Source: Escherichia coli (GTDB taxonomy: Bacteria; Pseudomonadota; Gammaproteobacteria; Enterobacterales; Enterobacteriaceae). Taken from it: 64,000 nucleotides of DNA. The DNA lies in NCBI RefSeq assembly GCF_022846255.1, contig NZ_AP025682.1; one strand, written 5' to 3'. This document shows, one piece after another, positions 2,348 through 5,994 of the stretch. The translations under genes were made by a program, and so were the position numbers. The notes beneath the pieces were generated by a model. That model had not been told where the DNA came from and ran no database searches. It saw nothing but the letters and a program-made list of their open reading frames with translations. Position 1 is the stretch's first letter, and each line of letters begins with the position of its first letter.

Positions 2348-2540
2348 GTGATCTTCCTTAATGCTATGAGTAATTAAGGCGAACGCTAAATAAATATTGC
2401 GTGCTGATATTAAGGCTATGCGCGTGGGGAAATTTAAACTGTGAAAGGATTCACAAATAGCTGCGGTTCAGAATGTGATATCCGCAGCTTATTGAGTGAA
2501 GTAATAATTATTCTCAATAATTAACAGAAAAGGGAAAATA

Positions 2541-4536
<1,996 letters not shown>

Positions 4537-4595
4537 GGCGTTGCCTCATAATCATGTAATGGGATAACAGTTTACGAACCCGTTATGGCTTTATA

Positions 4596-4661
4596 TGTGA
4601 TCTGAATCTCATTAATTATGCAACGCGTGAAACTTACATCAAAAATGCGCGACGCATCGCA
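4596..4661 (-). promoter_or_regulatory. cdd promoter region with two CRP-like sites about 50 bp apart (CytR/CRP-type nucleoside promoter)
   Basis: Plus-strand tgtgatctgaatctca (about 4596-4611) and tgcgcgacgcatcgca (about 4646-4661), both TGTGA-N6-TCACA-like, upstream of the cdd ATG. Confidence 0.55.
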
Positions 4662-4665
4662 AATT

Positions 4666-5792
<1,127 letters not shown>

Positions 5793-5994
5793 TTAATTCG
5801 TAAAACGTGCTACCGATCACATTAAGAAATCAGCGCTTATTTTTTCGCTCCCCGGTATTACGCAATGCGCAGCGAACTCAGGCATACATCAAGCATAGAG
5901 AGGGATTGCAGTTTGCAGCAATCCCTCTTTGCAGACCTTTAATCCGTTGACCGGAGGCGCTAACATAGCGCCTCATTTTTTTGCGGGTGATGAT

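What the first reader, a model, noticed from the sequence alone, without database searches (positions are those of the whole stretch)
4596..4661. Tandem CRP-like sites in the cdd promoter
Two TGTGA-N6-TCACA-like half-site pairs about 50 bp apart (tgtgatctgaatctca and tgcgcgacgcatcgca) match the layout expected for a CytR/CRP co-regulated nucleoside catabolic promoter. Expected biology; included as an explained regulatory signal.
Basis: partly seen in the sequence, partly recalled or inferred. Interest (0 to 1): 0.2.

Follow-up and report, generated by a model that had tools for sequence, protein, structure and literature searches.

The report
Known CRP/CytR sites of cdd promoter

Summary
Both quoted 16-mers are at the stated coordinates, 4596-4611 and 4646-4661, and their centres are exactly 50 bp apart. 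They lie in the 129-bp yohK-cdd intergenic region of an E. coli chromosome.

This makes 4596-4611 the promoter-proximal site and 4646-4661 the distal one.

I built a CRP matrix from 105 published ChIP-seq sites, leaving the cdd sites out.
- The proximal site scores 14.9 bits, the best of 63,985 positions in the window.
- The distal site scores 6.5 bits and ranks 52nd, which is no better than chance taken alone.

The distal site is supported by other evidence:
- In 80 Enterobacteriaceae species, a partner site sits 50-53 bp upstream of the proximal site in 78.
- The half-sites are 86-98% conserved, against 50-67% for the spacers.
- A published CRP ChIP-seq peak at cdd lists exactly these two 16-mers.

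Between the sites lie CytR-type octamer repeats, GTTTCACG-C-GTTGCATA. A second distal register 2 bp further upstream also scores positive, as the literature describes. A conserved -10 hexamer, TAAACT, puts the sites near -41.5 and -91.5.

The feature is already known and of low interest.

The parts
4596..4611 (-). Proximal CRP site (CRP-1 in the literature). On the cdd strand it reads TGAGATTCAGATCACA. The centre at 4603.5 corresponds to about -41.5.
   Evidence: It scores 14.87 bits and is the best position in the window. It is present in all 80 Enterobacteriaceae loci, with a median score of 14.1 bits. Its half-sites are 92% and 98% conserved against 50% for the spacer. The same 16-mer is listed under a CRP ChIP-seq peak at cdd.
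4646..4661 (-). Distal, weak CRP site. On the cdd strand it reads TGCGATGCGTCGCGCA. The centre at 4653.5 is 50 bp upstream of CRP-1, at about -91.5.
   Evidence: It scores 6.45 bits, rank 52 in the window. The partner spacing is 50 bp in 62, 51 in 9, 52 in 8 and 53 in 1 of 80 distinct upstream sequences. Its half-sites are 93% and 86% conserved against 67% for the spacer. The same 16-mer is listed under the cdd ChIP-seq peak.
4648..4663 (-). Second distal CRP register, 2 bp further upstream, at about -93.5. On the cdd strand it reads TTTGCGATGCGTCGCG.
   Evidence: It scores 4.48 bits. This register scores above 3 bits in 47 of the 62 sequences with 50-bp spacing. PMC3454398 states that two cdd CRP operators overlap by 20 bp and are shifted by 2 bp.
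4617..4633 (-). Putative CytR operator: direct octamer repeats GTTTCACG (4633-4626), a 1-bp spacer C, and GTTGCATA (4624-4617).
   Evidence: The sequence is read. GTTGCATA matches the published octamer GTTGCATT at 7 of 8 positions, and GTTTCACG at 5 of 8. The literature describes direct repeats with a 1-bp spacer at cdd. The proximal octamer is 91% conserved and the distal one 63%. Binding was not tested here.
4569..4574 (-). Inferred -10 hexamer TAAACT. It implies a transcription start near 4562 and a leader of about 25 nt.
   Evidence: The hexamer is 91% conserved, with some invariant positions. It lies 29-34 bp downstream of the CRP-1 centre, which is class II geometry. The start site was not mapped here and the consensus promoter scan did not find this promoter.
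4544..4547 (-). Shine-Dalgarno sequence GAGG of cdd.
   Evidence: It is invariant in the 12-species alignment.
3652..4536 (-). cdd coding sequence (cytidine deaminase, 294 aa), the regulated gene.
   Evidence: The ORF is, and RefSeq annotates the matching gene as cdd.
4666..5361 (-). yohK coding sequence, the upstream neighbour. Its stop codon is 2 bp from the -93.5 register and 4 bp from the -91.5 16-mer.
   Evidence: The ORF is, and RefSeq annotates the matching gene as yohK.

Best explanation
This is the regulatory region of the E. coli cdd promoter (cddP), read on the minus strand.

Activation: cAMP-CRP binds a strong site centred near -41.5 (4596-4611), which stands in for the missing -35 element and activates RNA polymerase in the class II manner. 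A second CRP dimer binds a weak distal target near -91.5/-93.5 (4646-4663) and adds a class I type contribution.

Repression: the CytR repressor binds the octamer repeats between the sites (4617-4633). It also contacts both CRP dimers, forming a CRP-CytR-CRP complex that blocks activation (anti-activation). Cytidine bound to CytR dissolves this cooperativity, so cdd is expressed when glucose is scarce and nucleosides are available.

Shown here: the motifs, their scores, the 50-bp spacing, the conserved -10 hexamer, and conservation of the arrangement in 80 species.

Taken from the literature: binding of CRP and CytR, anti-activation, and relief by cytidine.

Inferred: the transcription start near 4562, and therefore the -41.5 and -91.5 labels.
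For: - Locus identity.
- Site scores: the proximal site is the best CRP-matrix hit in the window, and both the distal site and the register 2 bp upstream score positive.
- Chance: about 0.006 for a site this good falling at 47-53 bp from the proximal site.
- Comparative: in 80 Enterobacteriaceae loci the proximal site is always present, and the distal partner is at 50-53 bp in 78.
- Footprint: half-sites, the GTTGCAT octamer and TAAACT are 86-98% conserved, while spacers and flanks are 50-67%.
- In vivo binding: a CRP ChIP-seq peak at cdd in ETEC H10407 lists both 16-mers (PMC4287617).
- Regulon membership: cdd is an experimentally shown CytR regulon member with three CRP sites, two of them shifted by 2 bp. 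It has direct CytR repeats with a 1-bp spacer, and CRP binds the proximal site more strongly (PMC3454398).
- Spacing criterion: 49-53 bp is the range used to recognise CytR anti-activated promoters (PMC4581735).
Against: - The distal site alone is statistically indistinguishable from background: rank 52, with 52 positions this good observed against 49 expected.
- The transcription start was not verified with the tools. The primary footprinting papers (Holst et al. 1992 EMBO J; Holt & Senear 2010 Biochemistry) could not be read, so the -41/-91/-93 labels rest on the conserved -10 hexamer and on my memory of those papers.
- ChIP-seq resolution cannot separate two sites 50 bp apart, so the peak proves CRP occupancy of the region, not of each motif.
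- The CytR octamers are short, degenerate matches with no statistical weight on their own.
Confidence: 0.95

Rival explanations
1. Only the proximal motif is a real CRP site. The distal TGCGA-N6-GCGCA palindrome is a chance match, or is conserved for some other reason, and plays no part in CRP/CytR control.
For: The distal site scores only 6.45 bits, below the 10th percentile of ChIP-seq sites. The window holds as many sites this good as chance predicts. ChIP-seq cannot resolve two sites 50 bp apart.
Against: A partner site lies at a fixed 50-53 bp in 78 of 80 species. The half-sites are conserved while the 6-bp spacer drifts. In the Klebsiella/Raoultella group the same position holds a near-consensus TGTGA-N6-TCACA scoring 15-20 bits. 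The literature reports CRP sites flanking the CytR operator at cdd, with two CRP sites taking part in activation.
Confidence: 0.03
2. The distal palindrome followed by TTTTT is the intrinsic terminator of the upstream yohJK operon, either mainly or in addition to being a CRP site.
For: The consensus scan reports two terminator-like hits at 4661-4644 on the minus strand, against 0.5 expected in shuffles. The element starts 4 bp after the yohK stop codon.
Against: The hairpin is weak and no better than shuffled sequence: -6.0 kcal/mol with z = -0.03 for the 31-nt stretch, and z = +1.33 for the 56-nt stretch. Orthologous stretches also fold poorly, at -3.8 and -5.4 kcal/mol. Any CRP palindrome forms a small hairpin, and the T run is also part of the 22-bp CRP consensus flank. 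The half-sites are conserved while the centre varies, which fits protein recognition.
Confidence: 0.07
3. The sigma-70-like element TTGATG-16-CATAAT (4642-4615, minus strand) is a second, CRP-independent cdd promoter, and the motifs act on it.
For: It is the only hit of the consensus promoter scan, matching 9 of 12 positions.
Against: The scan finds 1 hit against 0.5 expected by chance. CATAAT is not conserved: it reads GCACAC or GCATTA in other genera. A transcription start there would fall inside the CRP-1 site.
Confidence: 0.02

Closest known systems
E. coli K-12 cddP (cdd promoter; Holst et al. 1992 EMBO J 11:3635; Holt & Senear 2010 Biochemistry 49:432)
   Same: It is the same locus. The intergenic sequence differs from MG1655 by 2 SNPs, at window 4634 and 4584, neither within the CRP 16-mers, the octamers or the -10 hexamer. 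The layout is also the same: a strong proximal CRP site, an overlapping distal pair, and CytR direct repeats.
   Different: There is no functional difference. The window comes from a non-K-12 E. coli strain, and its A at 4634, next to the distal octamer, is the state seen in most other genera.
deoP2, udpP, tsx-p2 and nupG promoters (other CytR regulon promoters with tandem CRP sites)
   Same: They share tandem CRP sites about 50 bp apart flanking a CytR operator, CRP activation, and CytR anti-activation relieved by cytidine.
   Different: At most of these promoters the distal CRP site is the stronger one and the CytR octamers are inverted repeats. At cdd the proximal site is the stronger, the octamers are direct repeats with a 1-bp spacer, and the distal target offers two registers 2 bp apart (scores).
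CRP-S sites (Sxy-dependent CRP sites with TGCGA cores; Cameron & Redfield 2006, PMC1635313)
   Same: The distal cdd site has C at position 6 of both half-sites (TGCGA and TGCGC). This is the feature said to make CRP binding depend on a partner protein.
   Different: cdd is not a competence gene. Its partner protein is CytR, which has a DNA operator of its own, and no Sxy dependence is reported for it.

Membership tests
CRP (cAMP receptor protein) binding site | Match to the symmetric 16-bp core TGTGA-N6-TCACA, or to a CRP matrix, at the level of real sites | tested here: met
   The proximal site 4596-4611 matches 9 of 10 core positions and scores 14.87 bits, above the median (13.0) of 105 ChIP-seq sites. 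It is rank 1 in the window.
CRP (cAMP receptor protein) binding site | The same criterion applied to the distal site 4646-4661 | tested here: inconclusive
   It matches 7 of 10 core positions and scores 6.45 bits. This is below the 10th percentile of the training sites (8.13) but above their minimum (1.46), and is at chance level in the window.
CRP (cAMP receptor protein) binding site | Activating position relative to the transcription start (class II about -41.5; class I about -61.5 to -93.5) | tested here: inconclusive
   The start was not mapped here. The conserved TAAACT hexamer at 4574-4569 gives -41.5 and -91.5/-93.5. This agrees with the genome-wide modes of about -40.5 and -92.5 in PMC4287617.
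CRP (cAMP receptor protein) binding site | Occupancy by CRP in vivo or in vitro | not testable with these tools
   From the literature only: a ChIP-seq peak at cdd in ETEC H10407 with both 16-mers, and footprints cited in PMC3454398.
CRP (cAMP receptor protein) binding site | Conservation of the half-sites with a free spacer in orthologous promoters | tested here: met
   Across 80 loci the half-sites are 86-98% conserved and the spacers 50-67%.
CytR/CRP co-regulated (CytR regulon) promoter | Two CRP sites with centres 49-53 bp apart | tested here: met
   The spacing is 50 bp in the window. Across 80 species it is 50 (62), 51 (9), 52 (8) and 53 (1). The criterion comes from PMC4581735.
CytR/CRP co-regulated (CytR regulon) promoter | CytR octamer repeats (GTTGCATT-like) between the CRP sites, no more than 5 nt from a CRP operator | tested here: met
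   GTTTCACG-C-GTTGCATA lies at 4633-4617, 5 nt from the CRP-1 16-mer. The proximal octamer is 91% conserved. The match is by consensus only and has no statistical weight alone.
CytR/CRP co-regulated (CytR regulon) promoter | The downstream gene acts in nucleoside uptake or catabolism | tested here: met
   The gene is cdd, cytidine/deoxycytidine deaminase.
CytR/CRP co-regulated (CytR regulon) promoter | Repression by CytR that depends on CRP and is relieved by cytidine | not testable with these tools
   From the literature only.
Intrinsic (Rho-independent) terminator, for the distal palindrome | A stable G+C-rich hairpin followed by a U tract | tested here: not met
   The fold is -6.0 kcal/mol with z = -0.03, and z = +1.33 in the wider context. 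It passes only the loose pattern scan.
CRP-S (Sxy-dependent) site, for the distal site | C (or G) at position 6 of the half-sites; Sxy dependence; a competence gene downstream | tested here: inconclusive
   C6 is present in both half-sites. Sxy dependence cannot be tested here. The downstream gene is not a competence gene.

The most novel reading that the evidence does not exclude
The distal cdd site carries the CRP-S signature, C at position 6 of both half-sites, and this is conserved in most genera. It might therefore be occupied by CRP only with a partner protein. That partner might be not only CytR but also Sxy/TfoX, which would tie cytidine catabolism to the competence and nucleotide-scavenging response. 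The same position in the Klebsiella/Raoultella group has instead become a strong, partner-independent CRP site with 51-52 bp spacing, which would imply a different regulatory logic in that group.
Probability: 0.05. Interest if true: 0.3.

Novelty: already known. Interest (0 to 1): 0.07.

Why it matters
It matters little as a discovery, because cddP has been a model promoter for CRP/CytR combinatorial control since about 1990. It is useful as a calibration point for the scan. The first-stage reader recognised a true regulatory signal from raw sequence. The case also shows that a functional weak CRP site, here 6.5 bits, cannot be separated from background by motif score alone. It needs spacing, conservation or binding data.

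Tried and rejected
- Consensus counting with mismatches showed no enrichment in the window, so it cannot validate either site. I replaced it with a matrix built from ChIP-seq sites.
- The generic sigma-70 scan missed the real promoter, as expected for a class II CRP-dependent promoter with no -35 element. Its only hit, TTGATG-16-CATAAT, is not conserved.
- I rejected the terminator reading of the distal palindrome because the hairpins are weak, with z about 0.
- I tried to read the primary footprinting papers and related CytR papers, but none is held: Holst 1992 (PMC556823), Holt & Senear 2010, PMC38352 and PMC1169813.
- Searches for other texts giving the cdd site positions or the transcription start found nothing usable.
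- The supplement of PMC3454398 holds only figure captions.
- A candidate CRP site between the two main sites (4628-4643, 6.07 bits, centre about -73.5) scores above 3 bits at the equivalent position in only a minority of the 80 species. I did not count it as a site.

Full report
**What is in the sequence.** Their centres, 4603.5 and 4653.5, are 50 bp apart.

The surrounding ORFs identify the locus. A 294-aa ORF on the minus strand (4536 down to 3652) is cytidine deaminase. A 231-aa ORF on the minus strand ending at 4666 is YohK. A 301-bp stretch spanning the region is 99.7% identical to many complete E. coli genomes, which annotate these genes as cdd and yohK. It is present in 5,424 of 5,426 genomes. 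Compared with K-12 MG1655, the intergenic region has two SNPs, neither inside a quoted motif.

The motifs therefore lie in the 129-bp yohK-cdd intergenic region, upstream of cdd. The site at 4646-4661 is the distal one (TGCGATGCGTCGCGCA).

**Is it more than chance?** Counting consensus matches does not help. The window holds 18 matches to TGTGA-N6-TCACA with up to 2 mismatches, against 25.7 expected. With up to 3 mismatches it holds 190 against 214 expected. The distal site has 3 mismatches.

I therefore built a symmetric log-odds matrix from the 105 other CRP 16-mers in Table 1 of a ChIP-seq study of ETEC H10407 (PMC4287617). The two cdd entries were left out. I scanned the whole window with it.

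| Site | Score (bits) | Rank of 63,985 | Comparison |
|---|---|---|---|
| Proximal, 4596-4611 | 14.87 | 1 | Training median 13.0 |
| Distal, 4646-4661 | 6.45 | 52 | Training 10th percentile 8.13 |
| Distal register 2 bp upstream, 4648-4663 | 4.48 | 126 | - |

First-order Markov simulations of the window give 0.225 hits per window as good as the proximal site. They give 49 hits as good as the distal site, against 52 observed. The chance of a site that good falling 47-53 bp from the proximal site is about 0.006.

**Comparative evidence.** A scan of one genome per species with the Cdd protein returned 80 Enterobacteriaceae loci, from Escherichia albertii to Cedecea, Buttiauxella and Tenebrionibacter.
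- Every locus has a high-scoring CRP site 65-82 bp upstream of the cdd start codon (67.5 bp in the window), with a median score of 14.1 bits.
- The best partner site lies 50 bp upstream in 62 sequences, 51 in 9, 52 in 8 and 53 in 1. Only two loci have a partner below 3 bits.

In an alignment of the 80 distinct upstream sequences, conservation is concentrated on the recognised bases. The table gives the fraction of sequences identical to the window.

| Element | Conservation |
|---|---|
| Proximal half-sites | 0.92 and 0.98 |
| Proximal 6-bp spacer | 0.50 |
| Distal half-sites | 0.93 and 0.86 |
| Distal spacer | 0.67 |
| GTTGCATA, 4624-4617 | 0.91 |
| TAAACT, 4574-4569 | 0.91 |
| Intervening segments | 0.63-0.66 |

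A 12-species alignment shows the same pattern. Conserved half-sites around a drifting centre indicate recognition by a protein rather than a conserved RNA hairpin.

**Promoter anatomy.** All features below are on the minus strand.
- TAAACT is the only conserved -10-like hexamer, and it lies 29-34 bp downstream of the proximal CRP centre.
- Taking it as -12 to -7 puts the transcription start near 4562. The proximal site then sits at -41.5 (class II, replacing a -35 element) and the distal site at -91.5, with the alternative register at -93.5.
- The consensus promoter scan did not find this promoter, as expected when there is no -35 element.
- Between the CRP sites lies GTTTCACG-C-GTTGCATA (4633-4617). 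These are two direct octamers related to the CytR half-site GTTGCATT, with a 1-bp spacer, ending 5 nt from the proximal CRP 16-mer.

**Literature.** Sernova & Gelfand (PMC3454398) summarise the experimental work.
- cdd is one of nine genes shown to be regulated by CytR.
- Its promoter has three CRP operators, two of which overlap by 20 bp and are shifted by 2 bp.
- CRP binds the proximal operator more strongly, unlike at other CytR promoters.
- The CytR operator is a direct repeat with a 1-bp spacer, and the arrangement is conserved in 14 genomes.

All of this matches what I found independently: the proximal site is much the stronger, there are two positive distal registers 2 bp apart, and the octamers are direct repeats.

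Haycocks et al. (PMC4287617) list a high-confidence CRP ChIP-seq peak at cdd with exactly these two 16-mers. They also report that CRP sites cluster about 40.5 and 92.5 bp upstream of transcription starts. Watve et al. (PMC4581735) use two CRP sites 49-53 bp apart as the signature of CytR anti-activated promoters.

The primary footprinting papers (Holst et al. 1992; Holt & Senear 2010) are not held. From memory, they place the sites at -41, -91 and -93 and describe CRP shifting between the two distal registers when CytR joins the complex. I could not verify this here.

**Mechanism.** cAMP-CRP at -41.5 and at the distal target activates RNA polymerase synergistically. CytR binds its weak operator and both CRP dimers cooperatively, which blocks activation. 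Cytidine bound to CytR breaks the cooperativity. The motif layout, spacing and conservation are shown here. Binding and regulation come from the literature. The transcription start is inferred.

**Rivals.** The distal palindrome followed by TTTTT passes a loose terminator pattern scan and starts just after the yohK stop codon. The hairpin is weak and no better than shuffled sequence: -6.0 kcal/mol with z = -0.03 for the short stretch, and z = +1.33 in the wider context. The orthologous stretches also fold poorly. A minor terminator role in addition cannot be excluded. The sigma-70-like TTGATG-16-CATAAT at 4642-4615 is a single hit against 0.5 expected, and it is not conserved.

**Verdict.** The feature is the already known CRP/CytR control region of cdd. 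Its main value is as a correctly explained signal and as an example of a functional CRP site that motif score alone would miss.

Noticed in passing
window 2440-2455: TGTGAAAGGATTCACA is a perfect TGTGA-N6-TCACA core scoring 12.1 bits. It lies in the yeiS-preT intergenic region, with its centre 100.5 bp upstream of the preT start codon (2347, minus strand). It is not among the 111 high-confidence CRP ChIP-seq peaks of PMC4287617.
   Followed up: partly
window 5806-5821: CGTGCTACCGATCACA is the second-best CRP-matrix hit in the window, at 13.76 bits. It lies in the divergent yohJ/dusC intergenic region, about 57.5 bp upstream of the K-12-annotated yohJ start codon (5756, minus strand). It is also absent from the ChIP-seq table.
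   Followed up: partly
L036, L041, L043, L044, L046, L051, L053, L054 (about 118-120 bp upstream of cdd): In this group (mostly Klebsiella and Raoultella), the distal cdd CRP site is a near-consensus TGTGA-N6-TCACA scoring 15-20 bits. It is stronger than the proximal site and sits at 51-52 bp spacing. In Escherichia, Citrobacter and Enterobacter the distal site is the weak TGCGA-N6-GCGCA at 50 bp.
   Followed up: partly
window 4646-4661: Both half-sites of the distal site have C at position 6 (TGCGA and TGCGC). This is the 'CRP-S' signature that Cameron & Redfield link to partner-dependent CRP binding. No report of Sxy acting on cdd was found.
   Followed up: partly
window 4634 and 4584: These are the two SNPs relative to K-12 MG1655 in the cdd regulatory region. 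On the cdd strand they are A versus T next to the distal CytR octamer, and T versus C between CRP-1 and the -10 hexamer. At 4634 the window carries the base seen in most other genera.
   Followed up: partly
window 4615-4642 (minus strand): The sigma-70-like element TTGATG-16-CATAAT overlaps the CytR operator. It is not conserved outside Escherichia and is probably a chance match.
   Followed up: yes
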